Source of the DNA: a bacterium
GTDB lineage: Bacteria; Zhuqueibacterota; QNDG01; CAYUAG01
Length of the DNA stretch: 64,000 bases
Direction: 5' to 3'
NCBI GenBank assembly: GCA_046483025.1
Contig: JAWODZ010000126.1
Location: 11,981 to 75,980, forward strand
The notes under the pieces are model-generated. The model had not been told where the DNA came from, ran no database searches, and saw nothing but the letters and a program-made list of their open reading frames with translations. Positions 4,585-25,279 of the stretch are shown here, one piece after another. The position numbers and the translations under genes were made by a program. How positions within the stretch are numbered: position 1 is the stretch's first letter; each line of letters opens with the position of its first letter.

Positions 4585-5688
4585 ATGGAAGGAATATACC
4601 TACACTTTCCTTTTTGTCAGTCTAAATGCAGCTACTGTGATTTTTATTCCATTGTTTATTCCGAAAAACTGGTTTCAGAATATGTTCAGGCTCTGAAAAC
4701 CGAGATTCGGCTTTATTCTGATTTTTTCACCAGCAATAAAACAATCGATACAATTTATTTGGGGGGAGGTACTCCTTCCCTTCTTAAAATCGGACAGATT
4801 AAAGATATATTACATCATTTGTATAATGTCTTCAACATCAGTGAATCTTCGGAAATAACCATTGAGATGAATCCCGGAAATACCTCCCTGAAAGATCTCT
4901 CTGCTTACAGAGAGATTGGTATTAACCGGATCAGTATCGGGGCTCAGTCTTTTAAAAAGAATGAGCTGGCCGTAATGAAACGGATCCACAATCCTGATGA
5001 AATTAAAACCATATGTTCCTCTGTCCGGAAAGCCGGTTTAGAGAATTTCAGTCTTGATCTTATTTTTGGTCTTCCCGGACAGAATCTTCAGGACTGGAAA
5101 TACACCTTATCTGAATCTTTTTCTTTACAGCCAAAACATATTTCAGCGTACAGTTTAACCTGGAGTTCTAAAACGCCTCTGGGCAGAAAGATAATCAAAG
5201 GAGATATCCCGGCTCCTCAGGAGGAAATGGTAGCTGAAATGTTTCTGTATGCAGATGATATGTTAGTAGAAAGCGGATATGAGCATTATGAAATTTCCAA
5301 TTATGCCTTGCCGGGATACCGGTGCAGACATAATGAGGGATACTGGAATGGACAATCCTATCTGGGGCTGGGCCCGTCTGCTCATTCTTTCAGAGAAAAT
5401 AAGCGGTTCAGGAATGTTTCTGATGTCAGAGAGTATATTTCACGACTTTCCCAATCTTTTCTCCCGGTTGAGGAAGAAGAAGTGCTGTCTTCAGAACAGA
5501 TACGAACAGAACGTATTGCAGTGGGGCTGCGGAGAAAAGAGGGGATTGACATCAGGAAAAACAATATCGATCTGTCTGAAGTTGAGGGTTTTGTGCAGAA
5601 GGGATTGGTAGTTCATGATGAAAATGTACTTACGTTAACTCCCCAGGGGATGCTTTTTGCGGATGAGGTGGCGTTGCGGGTGGTGTGA
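4585..5688 (+). CDS. hemW: radical SAM heme chaperone HemW / oxygen-independent coproporphyrinogen-III oxidase-like protein
   Basis: CxxxCxxC radical SAM motif CQSKCSYCDF, GGGTPS motif and a HemN_C-like C-terminus. Ends with a TGA stop at 5686-5688. Confidence 0.85.
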   Translation: MEGIYLHFPFCQSKCSYCDFYSIVYSEKLVSEYVQALKTEIRLYSDFFTSNKTIDTIYLGGGTPSLLKIGQIKDILHHLYNVFNISESSEITIEMNPGNTSLKDLSAYREIGINRISIGAQSFKKNELAVMKRIHNPDEIKTICSSVRKAGLENFSLDLIFGLPGQNLQDWKYTLSESFSLQPKHISAYSLTWSSKTPLGRKIIKGDIPAPQEEMVAEMFLYADDMLVESGYEHYEISNYALPGYRCRHNEGYWNGQSYLGLGPSAHSFRENKRFRNVSDVREYISRLSQSFLPVEEEEVLSSEQIRTERIAVGLRRKEGIDIRKNNIDLSEVEGFVQKGLVVHDENVLTLTPQGMLFADEVALRVV

Positions 5689-7257: not shown

Positions 7258-8691
7258 ATGTCAGATAAGTATTCATTTATTATTGACGGAGAACATTGTA
7301 CCTCGGGAGAGGTTCTGGAAGTGAAAAACCCTTACAAAAGTGAAGTTATTGGTGTTGTTTTCCGGCCCGGGGATTCTGAGGTGGAAAGATCCATTGAATC
7401 GTCAGTCCGCGGCTTTCAGAAGAGCAGAAAATTTCCAACTTATAAGCGATCCCAGCTTCTTGCTTCCGCAGCATCCACTATTGATAAAAGAAAAGAGGAG
7501 CTGGCAGCCCTACTCTGCCGGGAGTCAGGAAAACCAATAAAATTCGCTAAAGCAGAGGTGCAAAGAGCAGTCAGCACTCTCAGCATTGCCTCTGAAGAGG
7601 CAACCCGTATAGTAGGAGAAACTGTGCCCCTGGACATAACTGAAAAAGCAGGAGATCGTCTGGGTATTGTACGCCGGTTTCCTGTAGGACCGATTGCCGG
7701 AATTACTCCCTTTAATTTTCCTCTTAATCTGGTGTGTCATAAAGTTGCACCTGCTTTAGCAGCGGGCAATACCATCTCTATTAAACCTGCCACAGCAACA
7801 CCGCTCTCAGCCCTGACTCTGGGGGAGATTTTTCTGGAGAATGATATCCTGCCGGGTTTTTTGAATGTTATTCCCTGTTCTTCACAGACAGCTGATAAAC
7901 TGGTTACAGATCCACGGATTAAAATGATCACCTTTACCGGCAGTGCGGAGGTAGGATGGAATCTTAAATCCGAGGCAGGAAAAAAGAAAGTCTGTCTTGA
8001 GCTGGGGGGAAACGCAGCAGTCGTAATAGAGCCGGATTGTGATATTAAAACAGCGGTGCAGCGCTCTATTCTGGGAGGTTTTGCTTTTTCCGGGCAGGTA
8101 TGTATTTCAGTACAGCGGATCTTTGTACATGAGAAGATTTTTGATGAGTTCACTGAATCCTTTCTCCGGGAAGTAAAGAAACTCATCCTGGGAGATCCTC
8201 TTTCCGAAAAAACGGATATAGGTCCTATGATTGATGAGGGTGCAGCTATACGAACTGAAGAATGGGTAAAAGAGGCAACCGATAAGGGAGGAAAAATCCT
8301 CACCGGTGGGGAACGGGATGGAAATATGTTCGCGCCCACAGTATTGACCAATGTACCTGCTGAGGCCCGGGTTTGCAGCGCTGAAGTTTTTGCTCCGGTG
8401 GTAGTTATGGAAAAGTATACATCTTTTGAGGATGCGCTTGATAAAGTAAACGATTCTGTTTTTGGTCTGCAGGCAGGAGTGTTTACCAGAGATATTGACA
8501 AGGCCTTCCGTGCTTTTAATACCATAGAAGTGGGAGGTGTGATAATCAATGACGTGCCTACTTTCAGAGTTGATTCCATGCCCTATGGAGGAGTAAAGGA
8601 GTCCGGATTCGGACGGGAAGGTGTCAAGTATGCATTAGAGGAAATGACAGAATTAAAGATTATGGTGGTTAATCATGGGCTGGACCGGTGA
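7258..8691 (+). CDS. NAD(P)-dependent aldehyde dehydrogenase (GapN / succinate-semialdehyde DH-like)
   Basis: 477 aa. Motifs ITPFNFP, catalytic Glu in ELGGNAAV and catalytic Cys in FSGQVCISV. Ends with a TGA stop. Confidence 0.85.
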   Translation: MSDKYSFIIDGEHCTSGEVLEVKNPYKSEVIGVVFRPGDSEVERSIESSVRGFQKSRKFPTYKRSQLLASAASTIDKRKEELAALLCRESGKPIKFAKAEVQRAVSTLSIASEEATRIVGETVPLDITEKAGDRLGIVRRFPVGPIAGITPFNFPLNLVCHKVAPALAAGNTISIKPATATPLSALTLGEIFLENDILPGFLNVIPCSSQTADKLVTDPRIKMITFTGSAEVGWNLKSEAGKKKVCLELGGNAAVVIEPDCDIKTAVQRSILGGFAFSGQVCISVQRIFVHEKIFDEFTESFLREVKKLILGDPLSEKTDIGPMIDEGAAIRTEEWVKEATDKGGKILTGGERDGNMFAPTVLTNVPAEARVCSAEVFAPVVVMEKYTSFEDALDKVNDSVFGLQAGVFTRDIDKAFRAFNTIEVGGVIINDVPTFRVDSMPYGGVKESGFGREGVKYALEEMTELKIMVVNHGLDR

Positions 8692-10932: not shown

Positions 10933-11376
10933 ATGTCCAAGAAAAGTCAATTACGCATAAAAAAAATTTTTTATGCTTCCACAGGCACCAAACAGGAGAT
11001 ACCACTCTATTCCTCCCGGGTTTCTGCAGGATTTCCATCTCCGGCTGAAGACTATATCACCAGACAGCTTGATTTAAACGATTTACTTATTAAACGGCCG
11101 GCTGCAACATTTTTTGTAGAAGTTGAAGGAGATTCTATGCTGGATGCAGGAATCCATGATGGAGATATCCTGGTTGTGGACAGAGGAGAAATGCCTGCTA
11201 ATAATAAAATTGTGGTGGCAGCTCTGGACGGAGAGCTAACCGTGAAAAAGATTGCTAAAATTAAAGGCAAACTTTATTTATTACCAGAGAATCCGGATTT
11301 TGATCCTATGGAAATATCCGGTGAGATGGAACTAATGATCTGGGGTATTGTGACCTATGTTATTCATAAAGTATGA
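10933..11376 (+). CDS. umuD: translesion polymerase V accessory subunit UmuD (S24 LexA-like peptidase)
   Basis: 147 aa. Ser-Lys dyad context GDSMLDAGIHDGD ... VVAALDGELTVKKI. Confidence 0.85.
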   Translation: MSKKSQLRIKKIFYASTGTKQEIPLYSSRVSAGFPSPAEDYITRQLDLNDLLIKRPAATFFVEVEGDSMLDAGIHDGDILVVDRGEMPANNKIVVAALDGELTVKKIAKIKGKLYLLPENPDFDPMEISGEMELMIWGIVTYVIHKV

Positions 11377-11529
11377 AGTACTTTTTATCGGAAAACAATA
11401 ATAAGTTTAATCTAAAAAGATATCTCCCACGAAATACACAAAACTCACTAAATAATTTATTTGATCTATATTTCGTGAATTCAGTGTCTTTTGTGGGAAT
11501 TACAGAATGAGCGTAAAAGTAGAACAATC

Positions 11530-12825
11530 ATGAAACAAACATCTCCCATATTTGCCCTGGTCGATTGTAATAATTTTTACGTGTCCTGTGAACGGGTATT
11601 TAATCCCTGTCTGGAGAATCATCCTACAGTGGTGTTATCCAATAATGACGGATGTGTGGTTGCCCGTTCCGAAGAGGTGAAAAAATTAGGAATTGCCATG
11701 GGCATGCCTTTATTTAAGTGCAGAGATGTGATAAAAAAATACGATATTGCAGTGCGTTCTTCAAACTATGCTCTGTACGGAGATATGTCCCGTCGGGTTA
11801 TGCAGACACTGGAGCAGTTTACTGACAGAATAGAAATATATTCCATAGACGAGGCATTTCTTCGTCTGGATAATTTACCCATTACTGATTATCACAAATA
11901 TGCAGAAAAGGTCAAACGTACCGTGTTTAAGTGGACAGGCGTCCCTGTTTCCATTGGTATTGCTGAGACCAAGACTCTTGCTAAGATTGCCAACAGAGTG
12001 GCCAAGAAGGAAAAAGCTCAAAGAGGAGTTATGAATATAGTTCGGCATCCTGATATAGATAGAATTCTGGAGTCAATTGAGATTGGAAAAGTATGGGGAG
12101 TAGGACGTCAATATGCCAGGATGCTGAGGAGAAATGGTATTAACAATGCAAAACAGTTTAAATATGCGGACAGGAAATGGATTAAAGGGAATATGACAGT
12201 TGTAGGGGAGAGACTTTTGCTGGAACTGGGAGGTGAGCCGGTCATTACCCTGGAACAAGCTCCTCCGCCTAAAAAAGCCATCTGCACTTCAAAATCTTTT
12301 GGAAGGCCGGTTGAGCAAAAGAGCGAAATGCATGCTGCGGTTACCGAGTATGCTGCCCGTTCTGCTGAAAAAGCAAGAAAGCAGGGTTCAGCAGCTTCCA
12401 TGGTGATGGTCTTTATGACTACAAATCCGTTTAAAAAGGAACCGCAGTATGCAAACTATAAACAGATGCGTCTTCCTGGTCCCAGTAATAATACCATGGA
12501 AATAGTAAAGGTTGCTTCCAGTCTGGGGGATCAGATATTCCGAGAAGGATATAAATACAAAAAATGCGGAGTTTTATTAACTCAGTTAATATCCTCTCAT
12601 ACTATACAGAAGAATTTGTTTACCGATGAACAGTTAACTGACAAAAGAAATAAATTGATGCAGGTGATTGACAGTATAAACAGTGTCTGGGGCAAGGATA
12701 AAATCAGAGTAGCATCAGCTGGTTTTACCAATCCCTGGGCCATGAGAAGGGAAATGAAGTCTCCTGAGTATACAACCTGCTGGGCAGAAATACCTGTTGT
12801 ACATTGTCAGGATAATAAAACATAA
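11530..12825 (+). CDS. umuC: Y-family DNA polymerase UmuC (Pol V catalytic subunit)
   Basis: [29 protein letters not shown]-terminus with SIDEAFLD motif. Start set at the internal Met ([17 protein letters not shown]). A 153-bp spacer separates it from umuD. Confidence 0.85.
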
Positions 12826-12959
12826 GAACTTGATAAATTATTAAGTATATATCTTCTATTAAATTAGGAAAGGATTCAATATTTGTTAAAGTTGAATATT
12901 TAGATAATTTTTGATAAATTGGAAAACGTAAAAATATTAAATTAATATCGGGTGTCTAA

Positions 12960-14267
12960 ATGAAAACAAGACATACTTGCATTATTGGTGATTCAAGAAA
13001 AATGGATGATATTAAAGATTCTTCCGTCCATTTAGTTGTAACTTCACCTCCTTATTGGCAATTGAAAGATTATGGTTCTGATGAACAAATAGGTTATTTT
13101 GATTCATATGAGGATTACATAAATAATCTTAATTTAGTATGGTTGGAGTGTTTTCGTGTTTTACACCCAGGTTGTAGATTATTGGTAAATATTGGAGATC
13201 AATTTGCTCGGGCTGTATATTATGGACGTTATAAAATAATACCAATAAGAACTGAAATTATTAAATTTTGTGAAACTATTGGTTTCGATTATATGGGTGC
13301 AATAATTTGGCAGAAAAAGACTACGATGAATACAACTGGTGGCGCAACGGTAATGGGTTCTTATCCATATCCTAGAAATGGCATTATCGAAATTGATTAT
13401 GAATTTATTTTAATTTTTAAAAAATCTGGTAAAGCTCCAAAAGTAAGTAAAAAAATAAAGGAGAAATCAAAAATAACTAAGGAAAAATGGAGAAAATATT
13501 TTTTAGGACATTGGTATTTTAATGGTGTTCGACAAAATAATCATATTGCTATGTTTCCCTTAGAATTACCTAAAAGAGCTATTGAAATGTTTACTTTTGT
13601 AGGTGATACAGTTTTAGACCCTTTTTTAGGGAGTGGAACTACATCCTTAGCAGCAATAAAGACAAATCGGAATTCTATTGGATATGAACTTAATGAGGAG
13701 TTTCTTCCTATTATTAAAGAAAAACTTAATGTAAATGAAAAGACTTTTTTTGATGATCATGATTTTGTTTTAAAACATCAAGATTATTTAAATATCAATT
13801 GGAAAAAAGAAATTCAGAAATTAAAATATATTTTTAATGATCCAATTAAGTTTAATAAAAAAATCGACCCAAATAAAATGAAATTTGGATCCAAAATTAA
13901 TATTTCTGATGGTATTAGCGGTGCAAAACGTGAAGAATATTTTTATGTAAAAAAAATTATCAAACCAAATTTGATAAAACTTTCAAATAATTTAATAATC
14001 AAATTAATTGGGGTTAAACCGTTTGAAAAGAAACAAAAAGATGCAATAAAATTTCTTGAGAATAAAATATTAAAACGACCGATTTTTTTAAAGTATGATA
14101 AAATGAAATATGATAAAGAAAATAATTTAATGGCATATGTATATATGAAAAATCGGACTTTCATTAATGCCCATTTAATAAAGAATCAATTATGTGGATT
14201 AGATGATAAATATGATTTTAAATATAAACAAAAATTTGAAACATTTATTAAAGGGGAATATAGATGA
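12960..14267 (+). CDS. beta-class N4/N6 DNA methyltransferase (SPPY then FxGxG order) with a C-terminal SNase-like extension
   Basis: Motif IV VVTSPPYW precedes motif I DPFLGSGTT. Residues about 300-435 are extra and resemble the staphylococcal nuclease fold: IKLIGVKPFE versus FRLLLVDTPE, and NLMAYVYMKNRTFINAHLIKNQLC versus [22 protein letters not shown]. Catalytic Arg/Asp positions are substituted. Lies in an AT-rich (about 27% GC) patch. Confidence 0.8.
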   Translation: MKTRHTCIIGDSRKMDDIKDSSVHLVVTSPPYWQLKDYGSDEQIGYFDSYEDYINNLNLVWLECFRVLHPGCRLLVNIGDQFARAVYYGRYKIIPIRTEIIKFCETIGFDYMGAIIWQKKTTMNTTGGATVMGSYPYPRNGIIEIDYEFILIFKKSGKAPKVSKKIKEKSKITKEKWRKYFLGHWYFNGVRQNNHIAMFPLELPKRAIEMFTFVGDTVLDPFLGSGTTSLAAIKTNRNSIGYELNEEFLPIIKEKLNVNEKTFFDDHDFVLKHQDYLNINWKKEIQKLKYIFNDPIKFNKKIDPNKMKFGSKINISDGISGAKREEYFYVKKIIKPNLIKLSNNLIIKLIGVKPFEKKQKDAIKFLENKILKRPIFLKYDKMKYDKENNLMAYVYMKNRTFINAHLIKNQLCGLDDKYDFKYKQKFETFIKGEYR

Positions 14268-14854
14268 AAACACGTGTTAAAATTAAAAATTCTGAAATTA
14301 AAGAATTACTAGGTACTAAACCAATTGAATTCCCAAAATATTCAACACAAATTATTAATTTAGCAAATCAGAATGCTCAAGGTACTAGACCTCCTGTTGT
14401 TGGTCAAATGAGTGAATTAATTCAAGAATTTACAGGGAAATCTATTTCAGAATGGGAGAAATGGTATTTAGCTAGGCATCCAGATGCTATTGATAAAGCT
14501 ACTGAAAAGATATCTGAAATGGTTGAGAAATTTTGAAATGTAATAAATGAAATTGATCGTAATATGATTGAAGATTGGGTAAAAGATTTAGTAATTATAA
14601 AAACTTTTATAGGATTAAAATTTCAAGAAGCAATTTTAAAGAAAACAGCGAATTTATTAAATACTTCATACCGTTTATCTGACTCTTTAGACGAATCTAA
14701 GGGGATCGATGGATATATAAATGATATTCCAATAAGTATCAAACCTGAAACATATAAAACTAAGAAGAGTCTCCAGGAAAAAATTGAAGTAAAATTTATA
14801 TATTATAAGAAAGTAAAAGATGGAATAAATATTGATTTAGAGGAAATAGTATAA
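14264..14854 (+). pseudogene. MTase-coupled partner ORF (candidate cognate restriction endonuclease) interrupted by a single in-frame TGA at 14534-14536
   Basis: Track ORFs 14264-14536 and 14564-14854 are in the same frame, separated only by one TGA and 9 sense codons. The ATGA overlap with the MTase stop implies translational coupling. A D...SIK segment (GIDGYINDIPISIK) is a possible PD-(D/E)xK-like motif. TGA is a genuine stop elsewhere in the window. Confidence 0.5.
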
Positions 14855-14926
14855 ATAAATAGATAATTTAATTATTAATAATCTGATTTTTTTATAATTA
14901 TAATTAAGACAAACAAAGGAGAAATT

Positions 14927-16792: not shown

Positions 16793-18598
16793 ATGGGACA
16801 GACAATGATAGAGAAGATTTTTACCAATCACAGCAGTAAAAAGATTACTGCCGGGGATATTGCAGAAATCAGCATAGATGCCCGTATTGCCAGGGATTTT
16901 GGCGGGGCAAATGTAGTAAAGAATATTCAGTCCCATAATCTTGCAATTGATGATCCTCAAAAAACCTTTTTTACCTTCGACTGTAATCCGGGAGGATCTG
17001 ATCAGCAATATGCAGAGAATCAGCACATCTGCCGTCAGTTTTCCCGGGAACGGGGAATCAAGGTGTATGATATCCAGTCAGGGATCGGTACTCATATTGC
17101 CATTGATGAGGGTCTGGTCCGACCAGGGGGCACGTTGGTATCCACAGATTCTCATGCCAATATTTTAGGATCAATCGGTGCATTTGGACAGGGTATGGGA
17201 GATCGGGACATTGCAGCGGTCTGGTCGGAAGGGAAAATTTGGTTTAAAACTCCGGAAACGGTAAAATTACTTTTTCATGGTACTCCACCAGATGAAATTT
17301 GTGCCAAGGATATAGTGCTGTTTTTATTGAAAAATCTGGGAGCTGCAGGATTATTAGGAAAAGCTGCGGAGTTGGAAGGTGACTATATCCAAACGCTCAG
17401 TCTAAATTCCCGCATAACCATTTCATCCATGGCTACTGAAATGGGTGGTATCATCGCTCTTTTTGCCCCCAATAAGGATGTCCTAGACCATTTTAAGGAA
17501 GCTACTGGAGAGGAGATAGAGCCAGTATACGCAGACAAGGATGCTCGATATGTTGCGGTGAAGGAATGTGATTTAAGTAAGATGGAACCTCTGACTTCCC
17601 TGCCCGGCCATCCGGAGGATGTGGTCAAGGTTACCGACCTGAAAGAAGTCAAAATTGATTCAGCCTTCATCGGATCCTGTACTAATGGACGATTATCAGA
17701 TATGCAAGCAGCTGCTAATATATTAAAGAACCGTAAGGTAGCTCCCGGAGTGGTGTTAAAGATTGTTCCATCTACCCGAAAAATATGGGAGCAGTGTCTG
17801 GAACAGGGAATCATTGATATTTTCATGAAAGCAGGAGCCTTGGTGGGTAATGCCGGTTGTGCCGGCTGTGCCAAGGGACAGATCGGGCAGAACGGTCCGG
17901 GTGAGATCACCATAAGTACCGGGAACAGGAATTTTGCCGGAAAGCAAGGTAAAGGGGAGGTGTATCTGGCCTCCCCGGAAACAGTTGCTGCTTCTGCAGT
18001 CAGCGGAATCATTACCAGTAAAAATAATATTCTGTCAAGTCCGAAAAGATACAAAACGGCAGATTATACAAAATCTGAAAAGAAAGTATCTTCACCAAAA
18101 ACCGAGAAGAAACCGGTAGAAATCCAGGGGCGGGTTTGGGTAGTTGACCAGGATAACATTGATACGGATATGATTTTTCACAATCGTTATCTTACCATAA
18201 CCGATGTTGACGAAATGGGGCAGTATACTTTTGATAATCTCAAAGGCTGGGAGGATTTTTCCGATAAAGCTGAAAAAGGTGACATCATTGCGACCGGATC
18301 CAATTTCGGAGCCGGTTCTTCCCGACAGCAGGCTGTGGATTGTTTTAAAAGCCTGGGAATACAGGCCATAATTGCAAAATCATTCGGAGCAATTTATGAG
18401 AGAAACGGCGTCAATTCCGGTTTTCCATTGATCAGTGGTGATTTGATTTCGTCGGGTATAGAAAGTGGTGAAGAAATAAAAGTGAATTTCAAGACCGGTG
18501 AAATTACCCGGTTAAAAACGGGTGAGACCATTCAGGCACAGCCCTTTTCTGACGTGCAGATGGACATTTATCAGAAGGGGGATCTGTTGAGGAAGTAA
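16793..18598 (+). CDS. aconitase-family dehydratase: fused large (LeuC-like) plus small (LeuD-like) subunits, 3-isopropylmalate/homoaconitate dehydratase type
   Basis: 601 aa. Residues 1-420 are LeuC/HACN-like with the Fe-S ligands ...GSCTNGR... and ..NAGCAGCAKG... Residues about 440-600 are LeuD-like (GSNFGAGSSRQQA). The unfused paralog pair lies at 19927-21677. Confidence 0.8.
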   Translation: MGQTMIEKIFTNHSSKKITAGDIAEISIDARIARDFGGANVVKNIQSHNLAIDDPQKTFFTFDCNPGGSDQQYAENQHICRQFSRERGIKVYDIQSGIGTHIAIDEGLVRPGGTLVSTDSHANILGSIGAFGQGMGDRDIAAVWSEGKIWFKTPETVKLLFHGTPPDEICAKDIVLFLLKNLGAAGLLGKAAELEGDYIQTLSLNSRITISSMATEMGGIIALFAPNKDVLDHFKEATGEEIEPVYADKDARYVAVKECDLSKMEPLTSLPGHPEDVVKVTDLKEVKIDSAFIGSCTNGRLSDMQAAANILKNRKVAPGVVLKIVPSTRKIWEQCLEQGIIDIFMKAGALVGNAGCAGCAKGQIGQNGPGEITISTGNRNFAGKQGKGEVYLASPETVAASAVSGIITSKNNILSSPKRYKTADYTKSEKKVSSPKTEKKPVEIQGRVWVVDQDNIDTDMIFHNRYLTITDVDEMGQYTFDNLKGWEDFSDKAEKGDIIATGSNFGAGSSRQQAVDCFKSLGIQAIIAKSFGAIYERNGVNSGFPLISGDLISSGIESGEEIKVNFKTGEITRLKTGETIQAQPFSDVQMDIYQKGDLLRK

Positions 18599-18798
18599 GG
18601 GGGTGTACTTATAGCCACGGATTTACACGGATAGACATGGATTTAGGTTAGTTAATAATTCTTGAAAAAAAATACCCATGGCAAAATTACCCATTTCCCT
18701 CCCTTGAAGGGAGGGAATAAAGGGAGGGTGAGATCGGAGCAGTCACTCTCCCCGAAAGAGTAGTTACCCTTCTTTCAGAAGGTTAGCTTCTGAATTGT
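18599..18798. repeat. about 200-bp dispersed intergenic repeat (family A), copy 1
   Basis: About 90% identical to 19645-19841. It contains three tandem CACGGATnnn units and a perfect hairpin CCCTCCC-ttgaa-GGGAGGG at 18697-18715. Confidence 0.75.
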
Positions 18799-18804
18799 GC
18801 ACCA

Positions 18805-18842
18805 GGTGGACTCCATCTCAGAGATGGAGTCCACCTTTGTGG
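18805..18842 (+). terminator. candidate intrinsic terminator (13-bp stem GGTGGACTCCATC / GATGGAGTCCACC, 5-nt loop, followed by TTTGTGG)
   Basis: Perfect inverted repeat unique to copy 1 of repeat A, downstream of the fused leuCD gene. The T-tract is weak. Confidence 0.45.
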
Positions 18843-18939
18843 TATATTTAGAAATCTGCTTGATTTATTTGAATTATTTCTATATATTAAAGTTGAACTT
18901 GAAGTTTAACTCTAATATGAAAATGAAAAGGAGCATACA

Positions 18940-19173
18940 TTGAAAAAAATTTCTATGTTACAATTGCGGAAAAATTCAAAACAAATAATCCAATGGGCCC
19001 GGCAGGGGAAAAAAATGATTTTAACCTATAGGGGAAATCCTGTTTTTCGTATTGAACCTATACAGGAAAATTCACCGGATGAAAACGATTTATTTTATAG
19101 TATAGATAAGCTTGCTGTGGATGAAGGGCAAAATATAACCAACCAGAAAATGGATACAATCATTTATGAATAA
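18940..19173 (+). CDS. type II antitoxin, Phd/YefM-like
   Basis: 77 aa. TTG start with RBS AAAGGAG 7 nt upstream. Overlaps the downstream PIN toxin by 8 nt (ATGAATAA). Confidence 0.65.
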   Translation: MKKISMLQLRKNSKQIIQWARQGKKMILTYRGNPVFRIEPIQENSPDENDLFYSIDKLAVDEGQNITNQKMDTIIYE

Positions 19174-19579
19174 AAATATATTTATTGATACCAGCGGTTA
19201 TTATGCTTTACTTATAAATCAGGATAATGCCCATAGAAAAGCAGTAGATATTTTACATGAAGCAGCTGAGGAGAAAATTCAATTTATAACTTCAGATTAT
19301 ATTCTTGATGAGATTGCTACCTTACTTCAATTTCGAGGAGTCGGGCACTTACTTCCTGAATTTTTTAAAAGAGTTTTCAACTCTCAGGCGTGTAGAATTG
19401 AATGGATGGACGAAGAACTGTTTCAGCAAACTAAATTATTTTTTTTCAAAAATAGTGATCATAAATATTCATTCACGGATTGTTTTAGTTTTATATTGAT
19501 GCAAAGAAACGGATTGGAAAAAGCATTGACCAAAGATCATCATTTCCGGGAAGCTGGATTTATTTCTCTTTTGAGTTAA
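19166..19579 (+). CDS. vapC: type II toxin VapC (PIN domain ribonuclease)
   Basis: 137 aa. N-terminal IFIDTSGYYALL with Asp7, and later D/E acidic residues typical of the PIN fold. Confidence 0.75.
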   Translation: MNKNIFIDTSGYYALLINQDNAHRKAVDILHEAAEEKIQFITSDYILDEIATLLQFRGVGHLLPEFFKRVFNSQACRIEWMDEELFQQTKLFFFKNSDHKYSFTDCFSFILMQRNGLEKALTKDHHFREAGFISLLS

Positions 19580-19594
19580 TTTTCAGTGCAAAAA

Positions 19595-19648
19595 CCTCCT
19601 GAAGGTTTCGAATCCTTCATTTCATTCAGGACAGGCTCTTCAGGGGGG
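19595..19648. repeat. REP-like hairpin element (family C), copy 2, directly abutting repeat A copy 2
   Basis: cctcctgaaggtttcgaatccttcatttcattcaggacaggctcttcagggggg versus the copy at 5923-5969. Confidence 0.6.
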
Positions 19649-19841
19649 TGTACTTTTAGCCACGGATTTACACGGATAGACACGGATTTGGGTTGGTAAA
19701 TAACTCTTGAAAAAATTATTCATTGCAAATCACCCATTTCCCTCCCTCGAAGGGAGGAAATAAAGGGAGGGTGAGATCTGAGCAGTCACTCTCCCCGAAA
19801 GTGAAGCTACCCTTCTCTCATAAGGTTAGCTTCTGAATTGT
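19645..19841. repeat. about 200-bp dispersed intergenic repeat (family A), copy 2
   Basis: Aligned with 18599-18798 over its whole length: same CACGGAT triplet and same CCCTCCC..GGGAGG hairpin. Confidence 0.75.
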
Positions 19842-19926
19842 CCACCTAAACTTAAAAAAAATTTATAAAAATTGCTGAAAAATTTGTATCTTTATGATAA
19901 AAGGTTATTAATTAAAAAAGGCATAT

Positions 19927-21198
19927 ATGATGGGAAAAACATTTATTGAAAAAATGCTTGCCAAAAAATCCGGTAAAGAATCTGTAGAGGTTGGAGAAAT
20001 AGTAACAGTGAAACCTGATCATCTTTTAACTCATGATAATACCTCGGCTATAATTTCCAAGATCAAACCGGAATTAAAAAAATATGGAGTAGTTGATCCT
20101 GAATTTCCGGTCATTGTTCTTGATCATGTCATTCCGGCTGCCAGTGAAAAGAATGCATCCGGTCATAAAAAAATACGCGAGTTTGTAAAAGAACATTCCC
20201 TGATAAATTTTTTTGATATTGGAGAAGGAATCTGTCACCAGGTAGTGTATGAAAAGGGACTGGCTTTACCGGGAATGCTGGTGGTTGGAAGTGATTCCCA
20301 CACCTGTTCTTATGGTGCAGTGGGAGCCATGTCAATCGGAATTGACAGAACCGAAGCAGCAAGCTTACTGCTTACCGGTGAAATGTGGCTAAAGGTGGTT
20401 CCAACTATCAAGGTAACTGTTAAGGGTACACTGCAGCCCGGTGTGTCTGCCAAAGATGTCATCCTATATTTTATTGGTAGAATAGGTGCAGATGGTGCTA
20501 CCTACTGTGCAGTAGAATTTCACGGAGAAGTAGAGAATCTCAGCATGGATGAGCGCTTTACCATTGCCAATATGGGAATTGAAATGGGAGCCAAGATAGC
20601 AGTTTTTCCGGTGGATACTCTAACCAGAGAGTTTTTATCTTCGATAGGTATTAAGTCCGGTAGTTACAAGGAAGTTTGGGCTGATAAAGATGCTGAGTAT
20701 ATGGAGGAGCTAACCATTAATCTAAATGAGATCACGCCGGTGATTGCCAAACCGCATACGGTTGACAATGTAGTTAAGATCAGTGAAGTTAAGGGAACAT
20801 CCATTGATCAGGGATTGATCGGGACCTGTACCAATGGCAGATTAAGTGATTTCAGAGAAGCTGCAGAAATTCTTAAGGGGAAAAAGATTGCTAAAAATTT
20901 CCGGCTTTTAATTCTTCCGGCTTCCAGAAATATTTATCGACAGTTAGTGAAAGAGGGATTAATGGATACTCTGGTGGAATCAGGGGGAGTTATACTGCCC
21001 CCGGGTTGCGGTCCCTGTCTGGGGGCGCACCAGGGAGCTCTGGCTCCGAAAGAGACATGTCTGAGTACGGCAAACCGGAATTTCAAAGGGCGTATGGGTT
21101 GCAAGGAAGCAGAAATCTATCTGGGAAGTGCTCAAACAGTCGCAGCATCTGCTCTGTATGGTAAAATAACTGATCCCAGAAAGGAGATTAAAAAATGA
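19927..21198 (+). CDS. leuC: 3-isopropylmalate/homoaconitate dehydratase large subunit (archaeal-type LeuC)
   Basis: 423 aa. Motifs ..GSDSHT.., GTCTNGR and PGCGPCLG. Confidence 0.85.
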   Translation: MMGKTFIEKMLAKKSGKESVEVGEIVTVKPDHLLTHDNTSAIISKIKPELKKYGVVDPEFPVIVLDHVIPAASEKNASGHKKIREFVKEHSLINFFDIGEGICHQVVYEKGLALPGMLVVGSDSHTCSYGAVGAMSIGIDRTEAASLLLTGEMWLKVVPTIKVTVKGTLQPGVSAKDVILYFIGRIGADGATYCAVEFHGEVENLSMDERFTIANMGIEMGAKIAVFPVDTLTREFLSSIGIKSGSYKEVWADKDAEYMEELTINLNEITPVIAKPHTVDNVVKISEVKGTSIDQGLIGTCTNGRLSDFREAAEILKGKKIAKNFRLLILPASRNIYRQLVKEGLMDTLVESGGVILPPGCGPCLGAHQGALAPKETCLSTANRNFKGRMGCKEAEIYLGSAQTVAASALYGKITDPRKEIKK

Positions 21199-21677
21199 AG
21201 GTATGGAAATATAGTGATGATATTAATACTGATATGCTTTTCCCGGGTAAATATACCTATACCTGTTCCACACCCGAGGAAATCAAACCTCATTTACTGG
21301 AAGATTTGGATCCTGATTTCAACAAGCAGGTCCAACCAGGGGATGTTATTTTTGCCGGAAAGAATTTTGGCTGCGGCAGTTCACGAGAACAGCCGGCTGT
21401 AGGATTAAAACATGTGGGGATAGCAGCAATAGTAGCAAAAAGTTTTTCCAGAATTTTTTACCGTGCCTCTTTAAATCAGGGATTACTACTTATAGAATCT
21501 CCTGAAAGTGTGGAAGCTTATACTTCCGGGGATCAGGTAGAGATAAAAGCCAGGGAAGGGAAAATATTGGTTGGGGATAAAGAATTTAGCTTTCCCCGAC
21601 TCCCTGATTCTATTATCGGAATAATGGAAGCAGGTGGATTACTGGAATATACTCGGAGGAGGTTGGGAAAAAGTTAG
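21195..21677 (+). CDS. leuD: 3-isopropylmalate/homoaconitate dehydratase small subunit (LeuD)
   Basis: 160 aa. GKNFGCGSSREQ motif. Its ATGA overlaps the leuC stop. Confidence 0.85.
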   Translation: MKVWKYSDDINTDMLFPGKYTYTCSTPEEIKPHLLEDLDPDFNKQVQPGDVIFAGKNFGCGSSREQPAVGLKHVGIAAIVAKSFSRIFYRASLNQGLLLIESPESVEAYTSGDQVEIKAREGKILVGDKEFSFPRLPDSIIGIMEAGGLLEYTRRRLGKS

Positions 21678-21785
21678 GTTCGGTTAAGGTTCAGGGTTCA
21701 AAGGTTCAGAGTTCAGGGTTGGAAGGTTAATAATCAACATATATCCTGAATTTTAAACCCGGAACTCAGAACTCTGAAATTTGAA
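21677..21785. repeat. short tandem repeat (GGTTCAG-type heptamers) plus complementary CTGAA-rich arm forming an imperfect long hairpin
   Basis: aggttcggttaaggttcagggttcaaaggttcagagttcagggttgg, then ...cctgaattttaaacccggaactcagaactctgaaatttgaa. TTCAGAGTTC pairs with GAACTCTGAA. Confidence 0.6.
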
Positions 21786-21842
21786 TTTAAAAAACCTAAG
21801 CAGTTTCTAGTAATCAGATAAACTTAGTAATTTTACAATGAG

Positions 21843-23138
21843 GTGATGATGCGATTATATGAGAATGAATCAAAGAAAATTTTCACTCGTCAAGGAATTC
21901 CGGTTCCCGGTCAGCTGGGAATAATATGCAGATCCAAGGAAGTTAAAAAAGTTTTAAAAGAGAGTGACTTCCCGGTGATGTTGAAATCTTTAATACTGGT
22001 AGGAGGAAGAGGAAAAGCAGGAGGAATAAAAAAGGCAAACAATGTTGCAGAAGCAGAAAGGAATGCCAAGAAGATTTTAAAAATGAGAATCAAGGGATAT
22101 CCGGTTGAAATGCTCATGCTGGAAAAGGCGGTTGTAGAAAACAGTGCAGTATATCTGGGAGTAACCATGAATCCTGAAACCTATAACAATATCATTATTG
22201 TAAGTCCCTCCGGAGGAGTAGATATTGAAACTGTAGCCAATGAGACTCCGGAGTTAATTTTCAGGTTGGAGTTGAAAGAAAATGAAAAGATCCTGCCGGA
22301 TGCTGCTGCTCAAAATGCTTCCGATTTTTTGACTGAGCATCTGGATACAGATGCTCAGTTCAATAATGAATTAAAAGACATTATTTCCATACTCTATAAT
22401 ACTTATCAAAAGCTGGACTGTAAAACTGCAGAGATTAATCCTTTGATTATCACTCCTGAAGGTCCGGTGGCAGCGGATGCCAAAATTGTGCTGGATGATA
22501 ATGCTCTGTTCAGACAAAAAGAAGTTTTCGGATTGCTGGGCATAAAAGAAGTCAGACATGATGTTTCCGAACCTACCAGAAATGAAGTCAGGGCTAGAGA
22601 GGCCGGATTTCCCTATGTTGATTTGCTTTCTGAAGATCACAAAAAAGACAATGATAAACTCTATGTTGGTCTGGTACCCGGGGGTGCCGGATATGGAATA
22701 TTTTCCATTGATGAAGTAGCCAATGTAGGAGAACGATTCTTTGACGGTCGAGTGATTCCGGTAAATTTTATGGATTCCGGGGGAGGTCCCTCCCTGGAGA
22801 AAGTTGCTGAAATGTTTCATTTGTTAATGGATTATAAGATTGTGGATTTAATTATTACTTCCAGATTCGGGGGTATTTCTTCCTGTGATACTTTTATCAA
22901 AGGATTGATTCAAGCAATTCTGGACCGGTTCAGATCAGGCAGGAGAATGATTCCTGTGTATGGCCGCATGGTGGGAACAGATCTTCCCAGTGCACGGGAA
23001 TATTTAGATAAAGCCAAGCAAAGATATTCAGAAGAATTAAAGGATATGGATATAACCGTTGGTAATAAAAAGATAATGGCAGAAGTTATCCGAGAAGGTA
23101 TTGAAAAAGCATTTAATAATAAGGAAAGGAAATCATGA
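21843..23138 (+). CDS. aclB: ATP-citrate lyase small subunit (ATP-grasp, SucC-like)
   Basis: 431 aa ATP-grasp fold (..VMLKSLILVGGRGKAGG..). Translationally coupled to the downstream large subunit (ATGA overlap at 23135). Confidence 0.75.
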   Translation: MMMRLYENESKKIFTRQGIPVPGQLGIICRSKEVKKVLKESDFPVMLKSLILVGGRGKAGGIKKANNVAEAERNAKKILKMRIKGYPVEMLMLEKAVVENSAVYLGVTMNPETYNNIIIVSPSGGVDIETVANETPELIFRLELKENEKILPDAAAQNASDFLTEHLDTDAQFNNELKDIISILYNTYQKLDCKTAEINPLIITPEGPVAADAKIVLDDNALFRQKEVFGLLGIKEVRHDVSEPTRNEVRAREAGFPYVDLLSEDHKKDNDKLYVGLVPGGAGYGIFSIDEVANVGERFFDGRVIPVNFMDSGGGPSLEKVAEMFHLLMDYKIVDLIITSRFGGISSCDTFIKGLIQAILDRFRSGRRMIPVYGRMVGTDLPSAREYLDKAKQRYSEELKDMDITVGNKKIMAEVIREGIEKAFNNKERKS

Positions 23139-25279
23139 AGCAAAAAATAAATGCTACTGAAGGAATGCTCTATTATATTGTAGAAAAGATACGGCCGAAA
23201 CTGGCTGAAAAGATAAAAAAGACCAATGAGCTGGAAACCATGATTATTGGATTGGGGGGACAGGGTACTAAACATGCAGGATTGATGAAAGAATTTGGAA
23301 CAAATGTAACTGCAGGGGTTGCTCCGGGAAAGGGGGGAAGAAGGGTACATGAAACTATTCCGGTCTATAATACAATTCAAGAGACTTTGGAAAACCACCC
23401 GAATATTGTAGCAGCCAGTATCTGGAGACATTATTCTACTGCAAAAAATTCTGCTGTTGAAGCTATTGAAGCAGGGATACCGCTGATTGTTTTAATTTCT
23501 GAGTTTATTCCTCTGAAAGATGTACGAGATATTCTCATTACAGCCAGAAAACATAATACTCTCTTAATCGGCGGCAATACTCCGGGTTTGATATTTCCTC
23601 CGGAAAGGATTAAAATCGGAATGCTTCCTGATGTTTTTCAGCCCCAGGTGAAAAAATCCGGTCAGTTGGGATCAAAAGGGGTTACCATTATTTCCAGAAG
23701 CGGAGCAATTCTGTATCATATGTCGGATGCAATGTCCAGTGTGGGGATAGCCCAGAATGCAGTTATCGGAGTGGGAGGAGATGGAGCTATTGGTTCAACT
23801 TTTAAAGATTTGGTACCTCTGGCCATGGAATATAAGAATACAGATGCAGTGGTGGTGGCAGGTGAGATCGGAGGATGTCAGGAAGAAGTTCTGGCCCGGG
23901 ATATGAAAGAGAATCCGGAGAAATATCCCAAACCCTTAATAGCTTTAATTTCCGGGGCCCATGCTCCGGAAGGAAAAACCATGGGACATGCAGGTGCAAT
24001 AGTAACTCCGGGAGGAGAAACCGGAACTTTCGCTTCCAAAAAGAAAGCTTTAGAAGAAGCGGGTGTGATAGTTGTTAACAGTCAATATGATTTAATTACA
24101 GCTGTTCAGAAAGCACTTCAGGATAAACAATATTTCGATCCGAAAGAATATTATAAAAAAATGAAAGAAAAATGGGAGGCACCTCCTCCTGAGCCCAGCT
24201 GGGGAACTATGATCACAGAGGTTAAGCCTAATAATTTGATAATCAGAGGATACGGACTACAGGATATTATAGAAAGTACTTCTCTTCTTTCTGCTGCTAG
24301 CTTAATTCTTCAAGGCGAGATTTTAGATGAACGATACGGCAGAGCGTTGAACAAACTTGCCTGTGATGCTGCCAAAAAGAGAGCACCTGAAATCCCTCAT
24401 AATCCGGATGAAGATATCTCCAAGAGTTTACAGAAGTATTTATTAAACGATGAAGAGCTGGTAAGTTTTGAGCCTCAGGGTGAAAACAGACCGGTTGAAA
24501 AATCCATCTATTGTCTGGGACGTTTTTGCTCCTATTTAGCTGATTCCCTGGGTAATCAAAAAGTCTTGATGGAAAAAAGTGATAGAGAGAATTTTTCTGA
24601 TTTGATTTATAACGCCTTAACCGGGGAATCGCAAAATATAGAAAAATCAAAAATGATAGAAGCAATGATAACGGCCTGCATTGATCATGGTGTAACTCCA
24701 CCTTCTGCTCAGGCTACACTTATTGCTGCTTCAGTGAGGGCAGATTATGAAGTTGCAGTTGCGCAAGGTGTGGGAGCTATTACTGATGTTCATGGTGGTG
24801 CCGGCGAAAAAGCAGCCGAATTTTTTATCAAATGTGCCGCCTTGGCTAAAGAGCGGAAAATTTCCCTGAAAGATGCAACCTATACTATGATGCAACAGTT
24901 CATTACTTCAGGTATCAGAATTGAAGGAATGGGCCACCGCATTCACACCCAGGATCCCAGAAGAGATGTTCTGTGGTCAATAGCAGAGAAAAATAAAATT
25001 TCAGGAGACTGTATAAAAATATCAAAGATCGCAAGTGGGGTTTTACAGCAGATAAGGGGGATTAATCTGCCGGTAAATGTGGATGGAGTAATTGGAGCAA
25101 TTATAGCGGATATGGGACTTGATCCCAAATGTGCGAAAGCAATTTTTATTTTTGGTCGGGTCTGTGGGCTGTCTGCGCATTATTTTGAAGAAATCATTAC
25201 ACAGTCACCTATGCGCAGAATTAATTTTTCTCAAGCTGTATACAAGGGAAGTAAAGAGAGAAAGTTTCCTAAAACCTGA
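23135..25279 (+). CDS. aclA: ATP-citrate lyase large subunit (CoA-binding SucD-like domain plus citrate-synthase-like domain)
   Basis: N-terminal CoA-binding GLGGQGTKH. Phosphohistidine loop MGHAGAIV. C-terminal citrate synthase-type GMGHRIH motif. Confidence 0.75.
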   Translation: MKQKINATEGMLYYIVEKIRPKLAEKIKKTNELETMIIGLGGQGTKHAGLMKEFGTNVTAGVAPGKGGRRVHETIPVYNTIQETLENHPNIVAASIWRHYSTAKNSAVEAIEAGIPLIVLISEFIPLKDVRDILITARKHNTLLIGGNTPGLIFPPERIKIGMLPDVFQPQVKKSGQLGSKGVTIISRSGAILYHMSDAMSSVGIAQNAVIGVGGDGAIGSTFKDLVPLAMEYKNTDAVVVAGEIGGCQEEVLARDMKENPEKYPKPLIALISGAHAPEGKTMGHAGAIVTPGGETGTFASKKKALEEAGVIVVNSQYDLITAVQKALQDKQYFDPKEYYKKMKEKWEAPPPEPSWGTMITEVKPNNLIIRGYGLQDIIESTSLLSAASLILQGEILDERYGRALNKLACDAAKKRAPEIPHNPDEDISKSLQKYLLNDEELVSFEPQGENRPVEKSIYCLGRFCSYLADSLGNQKVLMEKSDRENFSDLIYNALTGESQNIEKSKMIEAMITACIDHGVTPPSAQATLIAASVRADYEVAVAQGVGAITDVHGGAGEKAAEFFIKCAALAKERKISLKDATYTMMQQFITSGIRIEGMGHRIHTQDPRRDVLWSIAEKNKISGDCIKISKIASGVLQQIRGINLPVNVDGVIGAIIADMGLDPKCAKAIFIFGRVCGLSAHYFEEIITQSPMRRINFSQAVYKGSKERKFPKT

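What the first reader, a model, noticed from the sequence alone, without database searches (positions are those of the whole stretch)
14264..14854. Single in-frame TGA splits an otherwise continuous 196-codon ORF coupled to the methyltransferase
Track ORFs 14264-14536 and 14564-14854 share a frame and are separated by a TGA (14534-14536) plus nine sense codons (NVINEIDRN). TGA ends ordinary genes here (hemW at 5686-5688, aldH at 8689-8691), so a code-4/25 reassignment is unlikely. The alternatives are a nonsense mutation inactivating a toxic nuclease, a sequencing error, or programmed read-through.
Basis: seen in the sequence. Interest (0 to 1): 0.55.

Follow-up and report, generated by a model that had tools for sequence, protein, structure and literature searches.

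The report
Restriction enzyme gene broken by stop
The two short ORFs are the two halves of one MjaI-family restriction endonuclease gene cut by a single C-to-T change (Arg CGA to stop TGA), inside a recently acquired restriction-modification cassette whose methyltransferase is intact; this is an ordinary, well-known kind of gene inactivation.

Summary
ORFs 14264-14536 and 14564-14854 share a frame and are separated by TGA (14534-14536) plus nine sense codons. They are the N- and C-terminal parts of one Pfam domain, RE_MjaI (PF09568): profile positions 1-63 and 75-164, and 1-164 when joined (E 4.7e-66). More than 5000 homologues exist. The 120 best and 86 genomic loci are uninterrupted here, with Lys, Arg or once Ser at codon 91. 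The five closest loci read CGA, so the window's TGA is one C>T transition. TGA is a normal stop in this genome (9 of 41 long ORFs, including the methyltransferase) and Trp is TGG. Nothing indicates recoding: no RNA structure follows the stop, the downstream ATG has no Shine-Dalgarno sequence, and no homologue has a stop here. Four other loci carry single nonsense codons at different positions. The rest of the gene is well preserved (dN/dS about 0.1), so the lesion is recent or a base-call or consensus error; I could not inspect reads. The 2.1-kb M-R cassette (GC about 0.26) lies between umuC and a PPIase gene, which are about 50 bp apart in two close relatives. Verdict: a nonsense-inactivated nuclease gene of a CTAG-type Type II system, leaving a methyltransferase without a working partner nuclease. 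Low interest.

The parts
12960..14267 (+). Intact DNA methyltransferase gene (435 aa). It has an N6_N4_Mtase domain with motif IV SPPY at residue 29 and motif I FLGSG at residue 222 (beta-class order), plus a C-terminal SNase-like domain at residues 360-424. Its TGA stop overlaps the nuclease start codon.
   Evidence: Pfam PF01555 E 4.7e-45 and PF00565 E 3.9e-5. Motifs. Full-length collinear match at 84% identity to the MTase of L001, with no stops.
14264..14854 (+). Whole MjaI-family restriction endonuclease gene (196 codons), a pseudogene as sequenced.
   Evidence: The joined translation matches PF09568 RE_MjaI positions 1-164 of 164, E 4.7e-66. It is 68-86% identical to homologues of about 196 aa over 94-100% of its length. 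It is 52.8% identical to the nuclease annotated on Methanothermobacter plasmid pFZ1.
14264..14533 (+). N-terminal fragment (codons 1-90): the only part translated from the native start. It is all-helical in the model and lacks the beta-sheet core.
   Evidence: PF09568 profile positions 1-63. AlphaFold model helices 9-15, 27-39, 44-57, 61-71 and 75-89. SD-like aaagggg lies upstream of 14264.
14534..14536 (+). Premature TGA stop at codon 91. The orthologous codon is CGA (Arg) in the five closest loci, so this is a single C>T transition at 14534.
   Evidence: DNA alignment shows TTC CGA ACT in orthologues against TTT TGA AAT in the window. Codon table over 86 loci: K 53, R 32, S 1, no stop.
14537..14854 (+). 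Untranslated C-terminal remnant (codons 92-196; the mechanical ORF starts at ATG 14564, codon 101). It carries the long helix 99-131 and the beta core 136-191, with the family-invariant residues E122, E144, G147, G150, S158-I159-K160 and near-invariant D149. This is the inferred PD-(D/E)XK-type catalytic core.
12826..14926 (+). Inserted two-gene M-R cassette (about 2.1 kb, GC about 0.24-0.29 against about 0.39 for the window) between the umuC stop (12825) and the PPIase gene start (14927). The exact borders are uncertain by a few tens of bases.
   Evidence: Composition. Two syntenic relatives, L087 and L088 (82-94% aa identity over aldh, aminotransferase, TraB/GumN, umuD, umuC, PPIase and HD genes), have umuC and the PPIase gene about 50 bp apart with no R-M genes.

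Best explanation
This is one gene for an MjaI-family Type II restriction endonuclease, knocked out by a single nonsense mutation (Arg-91 CGA to TGA, C>T at 14534). It belongs to a two-gene methyltransferase-nuclease cassette that this lineage acquired recently by horizontal transfer into the umuC-PPIase intergenic spacer. Shown: the two ORFs are halves of one conserved domain; orthologues are uninterrupted and have CGA, or other Arg or Lys codons, at this position; TGA is a normal stop in this genome; the methyltransferase is full length with its motifs; the cassette is absent from the same site in close relatives. Inferred: translation from the native start ends after 90 residues, giving a helical fragment without the C-terminal beta-sheet core that carries the invariant E/D/S-x-K residues, so there is no restriction activity. 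The methyltransferase, probably m4C at CTAG by family analogy, keeps modifying the genome as an orphan in effect. The low dN/dS and the intact conserved residues mean the lesion is young relative to divergence from the nearest orthologues. Losing the nuclease while keeping the methylase is the safe route for a host to disarm a toxic R-M module. The same outcome, single nonsense codons at other positions, is seen in 4 of 86 related loci.
For: Pfam halves 1-63 and 75-164, and joined 1-164 of RE_MjaI. 5064 homologues, of which the top 120 are 192-267 aa long (nearly all 195-205) and cover 94-100% of the query. Alignment shows R or K at position 91 and every family-invariant residue retained in the window copy. 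The closest orthologous DNA reads CGA where the window reads TGA. Across 86 loci the position is K 53, R 32, S 1, never a stop, and the five closest use CGA. Four other loci have single nonsense codons at positions 4, 54, 105 and 130 (TAA or TAG), so disruptions recur but their positions are not conserved. TGA ends 9 of 41 long ORFs including the MTase, and Trp is TGG. dN/dS is 0.09-0.11 against orthologues, with only 1 deviation (G153N) at 71 columns conserved at 90% or more. Window-specific substitutions are biased GC to AT (21 against 8), in line with a C>T hit. The MTase is full length with SPPY and FLGSG motifs. Empty site in L087 and L088, and a low-GC island. Literature: MjaI is an active CTAG enzyme, and inactive R genes within R-M systems are documented (HindVP, HpyAVIP, HpyAIXP) (PMC2615612). 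M.MjaI and M.MthZI are beta-class m4C CTAG methyltransferases (PMC5867850).
Against: Without reads, a base-call or consensus error, or a minority allele fixed by the assembler, cannot be excluded. The gene shows almost no other decay, which fits an error as well as a very recent mutation. The exact window sequence was not found in any public collection, so there is no independent assembly to compare. The excess of stops in nuclease genes over methyltransferase genes among related loci is not significant (4 of 86 against 2 of 70, p = 0.69), so selection for nuclease loss is not demonstrated by these data. Loss of activity and CTAG specificity are inferred, not measured.
Confidence: 0.7

Rival explanations
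1. Sequencing, polishing or consensus artefact, or a minority allele in a mixed population: the organism actually has CGA and an intact, active R-M system.
For: The gene is otherwise intact: dN/dS about 0.1, all invariant residues present, and 1 deviation at 71 conserved columns, which is the median for intact homologues. A single-base substitution is all that separates it from an open gene. Single stops also occur in a few methyltransferase genes of related MAGs, so some noise in such assemblies is plausible.
Against: The change is a substitution, not a homopolymer-length error, and consensus substitution errors are rare at normal coverage (general knowledge, not tested here). It is the most mutation-prone kind of nonsense change (CGA to TGA transition), in a lineage whose cassette is drifting towards AT. 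Inactivated R genes are common biologically (PMC2615612).
Confidence: 0.18
2. Leaky or programmed UGA read-through (near-cognate tRNA-Trp) yields a small amount of full-length nuclease, so that the stop throttles expression of a toxic enzyme.
For: UGA is the leakiest stop codon in bacteria, and UGA-A is not among the strongest contexts (my own knowledge, not tested). Both halves remain open and well conserved. The gene sits in a freshly acquired cassette, where low nuclease levels would help establishment.
Against: None of 86 loci or the 24 aligned proteins has a stop at this position. The four other interrupted genes have stops at different positions and use TAA or TAG. The 86 nt around and after the stop fold no better than shuffles (z = 0.57). 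TGA-A is also the commonest context of ordinary gene ends here (5 of 9). Homologues have Arg or Lys at this position, not Trp.
Confidence: 0.04
3. A functional split enzyme: the 90-aa N-fragment and a C-fragment re-initiated at ATG 14564 assemble into an active nuclease.
For: The stop falls in a predicted loop (residues 90-98) between the helical N-part and the long helix plus beta core. An in-frame ATG lies 27 nt after the stop.
Against: No Shine-Dalgarno sequence lies before 14564, whereas neighbouring genes have AAGGAG-type sites. That Met is an internal residue replaced by Leu or Ile in some homologues. No homologue among the 120 proteins and 86 loci is split there. Nine conserved-region residues (92-100) would be lost.
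Confidence: 0.03
4. TGA is a sense codon here (code 4 or 25, either in the host or inherited from the donor) or encodes selenocysteine.
For: The cassette is very AT-rich (GC about 0.26), as many code-4 and code-25 organisms are.
Against: TGA ends 9 of 41 long conserved ORFs, including the cassette's own methyltransferase. All Trp codons in the cassette and host genes are TGG. Homologues have Arg or Lys at the site, not Trp, Gly or Cys. There is no SECIS-like hairpin, and no tRNA of any kind in the window.
Confidence: 0.01

Closest known systems
R.MjaI (MJ0984, Methanocaldococcus jannaschii) and the MjaI-family nuclease of Methanothermobacter plasmid pFZ1 (R.MthZI by my recollection): CTAG-specific Type II restriction endonucleases, Pfam PF09568 RE_MjaI
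   Same: Full-length match to the family profile. 52.8% identity over residues 11-187 to the nuclease annotated on pFZ1, NC_001337.1. Size of about 196 aa. Adjacent to an N4/N6 beta-class methyltransferase. MjaI is an experimentally active CTAG enzyme (PMC2615612).
   Different: Interrupted by TGA at codon 91. The host is bacterial (KSB1-like by LepA). The genes are co-directional in the order M then R, with overlapping stop and start, whereas on pFZ1 R and M are convergent. The methyltransferase is 435 aa with an SNase-like C-terminal domain, against 303-364 aa for M.MjaI, M.MthZI and M.BfaI (PMC5867850). Specificity was not determined here.
Naturally inactivated restriction genes inside otherwise intact R-M systems (for example HindVP in H. 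influenzae, HpyAVIP and HpyAIXP in H. pylori), and the orphan methyltransferases that result
   Same: An R gene disabled by a point lesion next to an intact M gene. The phenomenon is documented (PMC2615612, table of predicted and experimental activity). Orphan Type II MTases are widespread (PMC4752239). It recurs in this family: 4 of 86 loci.
   Different: Here the lesion is a single, apparently very recent nonsense codon in a freshly inserted cassette. Whether the methylase is active or has taken on any other role is unknown.
Programmed stop-codon recoding (UGA read-through or selenocysteine insertion)
   Same: An in-frame UGA within a conserved coding sequence whose two sides both remain open.
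   Different: The stop is not conserved in homologues, there is no downstream structure, and the orthologous residue is Arg or Lys rather than Cys, Sec or Trp.

Membership tests
RE_MjaI (PF09568) restriction endonuclease family | Significant match to the family profile over its whole length | tested here: met
   The joined translation scores 222 bits, E 4.7e-66, over profile positions 1-164 of 164. The halves cover 1-63 and 75-164.
RE_MjaI (PF09568) restriction endonuclease family | Family-invariant residues retained, including the acidic and Lys residues of the beta core | tested here: met
RE_MjaI (PF09568) restriction endonuclease family | Uninterrupted reading frame encoding an enzyme of about 196 aa | tested here: not met
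   TGA at codon 91. This is a pseudogene member of the family as sequenced.
RE_MjaI (PF09568) restriction endonuclease family | Cleavage at CTAG | not testable with these tools
   Only analogy is available: 52.8% identity to the pFZ1 enzyme and MjaI = CTAG (PMC2615612). CTAG is depleted in the host DNA (14 observed against 47.8 expected), but that is common in bacteria and is not specific evidence.
Type II restriction-modification system | Adjacent, separately encoded methyltransferase and endonuclease genes | tested here: met
   The MTase at 12960-14267 overlaps the RE start at 14264. The same M then R order is seen directly upstream in 82 of the 86 related loci.
Type II restriction-modification system | Methyltransferase with AdoMet-binding and catalytic motifs | tested here: met
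   PF01555 E 4.7e-45. SPPY at residue 29 and FLGSG at residue 222, in beta-class order.
Type II restriction-modification system | Active nuclease | not testable with these tools
   Sequence predicts a truncated 90-aa product without the core. Activity was not measured.
Programmed UGA recoding (read-through or selenocysteine) | Stop codon conserved at the same position in homologues | tested here: not met
   0 of 86 loci and 0 of 24 aligned proteins have a stop there.
Programmed UGA recoding (read-through or selenocysteine) | Stimulatory RNA structure or SECIS immediately downstream | tested here: not met
   MFE -6.1 kcal/mol against a shuffle mean of -7.3, z = 0.57. No Rfam hit in the window.
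Alternative genetic code with TGA as a sense codon (tables 4 and 25) | TGA not used as a terminator; Trp or Gly at TGA positions in homologues | tested here: not met
   TGA ends 9 of 41 long ORFs and Trp is TGG. Homologues have K or R at the site.

The most novel reading that the evidence does not exclude
The UGA is tolerated because a low level of read-through, or re-initiation giving a two-piece enzyme, still supplies a trace of nuclease. The stop would then act as an expression throttle that lets a newly arrived R-M cassette establish without killing a host whose CTAG sites are not yet methylated.
Probability: 0.04. Interest if true: 0.5.

Novelty: new member of a known kind. Interest (0 to 1): 0.12.

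Why it matters
It matters mainly for annotation. The two short ORFs should be merged and labelled as one MjaI-family restriction endonuclease pseudogene, not as two hypothetical proteins. The neighbouring methyltransferase should be treated as lacking a working partner nuclease. The locus is also a clear small example of the life cycle of an R-M module: recent insertion into an intergenic spacer, documented by empty sites in relatives, followed quickly by a point knock-out of the toxic nuclease. Nothing here challenges current understanding.

Tried and rejected
1. I looked for the same genome or allele elsewhere. Exact-protein look-ups of the 90-aa ORF and of the methyltransferase found nothing. 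A 44-nt pattern spanning the stop, with the mutated base left open, found nothing in genome contigs or metagenome contigs. There is therefore no independent assembly to test for a sequencing error.

2. Contigs of the closest LepA relatives (86-91% identity; L093-L096) have a different gene order after hemW and do not reach the umuC site. The empty-site evidence rests on L087 and L088 only.

3. I tested whether stops are enriched in nuclease genes over methyltransferase genes among related loci, which would argue for selection rather than noise. The result was not significant: 4 of 86 against 2 of 70, Fisher p = 0.69. One of the two methyltransferase cases (L079) looks like a domain split rather than decay.

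4. A relative-rate test for relaxed constraint on the window branch gave an excess of window-specific amino-acid changes in all four comparisons (16 v 8, 11 v 8, 18 v 5, 14 v 7). Only one is nominally significant (p = 0.011), the nucleotide rates are equal, and the changes are conservative and AT-driven. I do not take this as evidence of decay.

5. A 9-bp direct repeat AATTATTAA at both cassette borders (12836 and 14870) looked like a target-site duplication. The word occurs 10 times in the window, 4 of them in or next to the AT-rich cassette, so I rejected it. No integrase or transposase gene is present.

7. Promoter and terminator scans were at background level.

8. Selenocysteine and alternative-code readings were rejected.

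Full report
**Observation.** The sequence is as described. ORF 14264-14536 (+, 90 aa) ends in TGA at 14534-14536. Nine sense codons (NVINEIDRN) follow, and then ATG 14564 opens a 96-aa ORF that ends at 14854 in the same frame. A one-frame translation of 14264-14857 has a single internal stop in 196 codons. The ATG at 14264 overlaps the TGA stop of the upstream 435-aa gene (12960-14267) as ATGA.

**What the two ORFs are.** Against Pfam, the first ORF matches positions 1-63 and the second positions 75-164 of the 164-position model RE_MjaI (PF09568). The joined sequence matches 1-164 at E 4.7e-66. The two ORFs are therefore complementary halves of one domain, not two genes. A search of 5.8 billion proteins found 5064 homologues. 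The best 120 are 192-267 aa long (nearly all 195-205), 68-86% identical, and cover 94-100% of the joined query. In an alignment of 24 of them with the window sequence, the position of the stop is Arg or Lys, and every family-invariant residue is present in the window copy. The upstream gene is an N6_N4 DNA methyltransferase (PF01555, E 4.7e-45). It has motif IV SPPY at residue 29, before motif I FLGSG at residue 222 (beta-class order), and a weak SNase-like C-terminal domain.

**The mutation.** I fetched the DNA of the closest orthologues (L001-L006) and 80 further loci from named genomes. The two closest read GAG AAT TTC CGA ACT GTA where the window reads GAG AAA TTT TGA AAT GTA. Over all 86 loci the codon aligned to residue 91 is Lys in 53, Arg in 32 and Ser in 1, and never a stop. 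The five closest loci all use CGA. One C>T transition at 14534 therefore accounts for the stop. The window's cassette is more AT-rich than its orthologues (GC 0.269 against 0.31-0.33). Its lineage-specific substitutions run GC to AT 21 times and AT to GC 8 times, which fits a C>T hit.

**Genetic code.** TGA terminates 9 of 41 ORFs of at least 150 aa in the window. These include the radical-SAM/HemN-like gene (4585-5688), the aldehyde dehydrogenase (7258-8691) and the methyltransferase of this cassette. Trp is encoded by TGG throughout, including three TGG codons in the nuclease gene itself. Homologues do not have Trp, Gly or Cys at the site. Code 4, code 25 and selenocysteine are excluded as far as sequence can show.

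**Recoding and split-enzyme readings.**
- The 86 nt spanning the stop and the following 75 nt fold no better than shuffled sequence (z = 0.57). Rfam and ARAGORN find nothing in the window.
- TGA-A is also the commonest context of ordinary gene ends here (5 of 9).
- No homologue has a stop at this position. Four of the 86 loci (L011, L075, L028, L037) carry a single nonsense codon, but at positions 4, 54, 105 and 130 and as TAA or TAG. These are recurrent independent knock-outs, not a conserved signal.
- ATG 14564 has no Shine-Dalgarno sequence, whereas 14264 (aaagggg) and the neighbouring genes (aaggag) do. The corresponding Met is Leu or Ile in some homologues.
- The 90-residue product therefore lacks the part that carries the invariant E122, E144 and S158-x-K160 and near-invariant D149. 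Loss of activity is an inference from this.

**Age of the lesion.** dN/dS between the window copy and its orthologues is 0.09-0.11, with dS 0.7-1.3. The window copy departs from only 1 of 71 columns conserved at 90% or more (G153N), which is the median for intact homologues. Relative-rate tests show a modest, mostly non-significant excess of conservative, AT-driven amino-acid changes on the window branch. The gene evolved under purifying selection until very recently. This fits a young mutation, and equally a base-call or consensus error. I could not inspect reads, and the exact sequence is in none of the public collections searched. A test for an excess of stops in nuclease over methyltransferase genes in related loci was not significant.

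**Context.**
- The cassette is a low-GC island: 0.24-0.29 against about 0.39 for the window. It lies between the umuC stop (12825) and the start of a PpiC-type PPIase gene (14927).
- Two metagenome contigs from close relatives (L087 and L088, 82-94% protein identity) share the gene order aldehyde dehydrogenase, aminotransferase, TraB/GumN, umuD, umuC, PPIase, HD. In them umuC and the PPIase gene are about 50 bp apart and no R-M genes are present. The cassette is thus a recent lineage-specific insertion.
- No integrase or transposase is present, and there are no convincing terminal repeats.
- The host is an uncultured bacterium. Its LepA is 72% identical to proteins from candidate division KSB1 MAGs, and closer relatives at 86-91% are unnamed. 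Many of the closest nuclease homologues are also from KSB1 and Calditrichota MAGs.

**Comparison with what is known.** MjaI (MJ0984) is an experimentally active CTAG-specific Type II enzyme, and MthZI is its isoschizomer (PMC2615612). M.MthZI and M.MjaI are beta-class m4C methyltransferases (PMC5867850). The window's nuclease is 52.8% identical to the MjaI-family nuclease annotated on Methanothermobacter plasmid pFZ1, where R and M are convergent rather than co-directional. That pFZ1 carries MthZI is my recollection, not something the tools showed. Inactive R genes inside R-M systems (HindVP, HpyAVIP, HpyAIXP) are documented (PMC2615612), and orphan Type II methyltransferases are widespread (PMC4752239). 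The present case is one more instance of a nuclease gene disabled by a point mutation while the methyltransferase is kept.

**Verdict.** My estimates are: real nonsense mutation about 0.7, sequence artefact or minority allele about 0.18, read-through or split enzyme together under 0.1, code change about 0.01. This is a new member of a known kind, of low interest (0.12). Its practical value is correct annotation as one pseudogene.

Noticed in passing
window 14037-14231 (residues 360-424 of the methyltransferase): The methyltransferase carries a C-terminal SNase-like (staphylococcal nuclease / OB-fold) domain (PF00565, E 3.9e-5, 24.5 bits against a cut-off of 21). This makes it 435 aa, against 303-364 aa for the characterised CTAG methylases M.MjaI, M.MthZI and M.BfaI (PMC5867850). 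The extension is conserved in most related loci: 70 of 86 align to about residue 426-435. Its role is unknown.
   Followed up: partly
window 1-64000 (host part, excluding 12826-14926): CTAG is the most depleted 4-base palindrome: 14 observed against 47.8 expected from a maximal-order Markov model (ratio 0.29). The cassette itself has 4 against 2.4 expected, including CTAG sites at 14309, 14385 and 14472 inside the nuclease gene; at two of these (14309, 14472) the closest orthologues L001 and L002 have no CTAG (14385 not compared). CTAG avoidance is common in bacteria, so this is not specific evidence for a history of CTAG restriction.
   Followed up: partly
window 18940-19579: A Phd/YefM-like antitoxin ORF (18940-19173; 24.6 bits, below Pfam's cut-off of 29.8) overlaps a PIN-domain toxin ORF (19166-19579; PF01850, E 3.2e-8). 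They sit in a 1.3-kb low-GC gap between two aconitase-family genes. In relative L088 those two genes are about 55 bp apart. This is a second small lineage-specific insertion of an addiction-type module.
   Followed up: partly
L011:3010, L075:3160, L028:3313, L037:1244: Four other species-representative genomes (three Calditrichaceae MAGs and one KSB1 MAG) have MjaI-family nuclease genes interrupted by one nonsense codon each, at positions 4, 54, 105 and 130 (TAA or TAG). Each has an apparently intact methyltransferase upstream.
   Followed up: partly
L071:193-1323 and L079:1713-2975: In L071 (Hydrogenothermaceae MAG) it is the methyltransferase that has two in-frame stops (W33 TAG inside the SPPYW motif, G71 TGA), next to a nuclease gene without stops. 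In L079, five TAA codons cluster in the linker (query residues 344-357) before the SNase-like tail, which suggests that the tail is a separate ORF there.
   Followed up: no
window 16793-25279: This stretch has two sets of aconitase-family genes: a fused 601-aa gene (16793-18598), and 423-aa plus 160-aa large and small subunit genes (19927-21677). They are followed by ATP-grasp/CoA-ligase and citrate-synthase-domain genes (21843-25279) that resemble the two subunits of ATP-citrate lyase, which hints at a reductive TCA cycle.
   Followed up: no
window 10933-12825: A umuD-like (Peptidase_S24) and umuC-like (IMS, IMS_C, DUF4113) pair, the SOS translesion polymerase genes, lies immediately upstream of the inserted cassette. 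The mechanical ORF for umuC starts at TTG 11491, but the homology to relatives begins at ATG 11530.
   Followed up: no
window 1-64000: No tRNA or tmRNA gene and no Rfam family at gathering threshold anywhere in the 64 kb. Nearly all long ORFs are on the + strand, 40 of 41.
   Followed up: no
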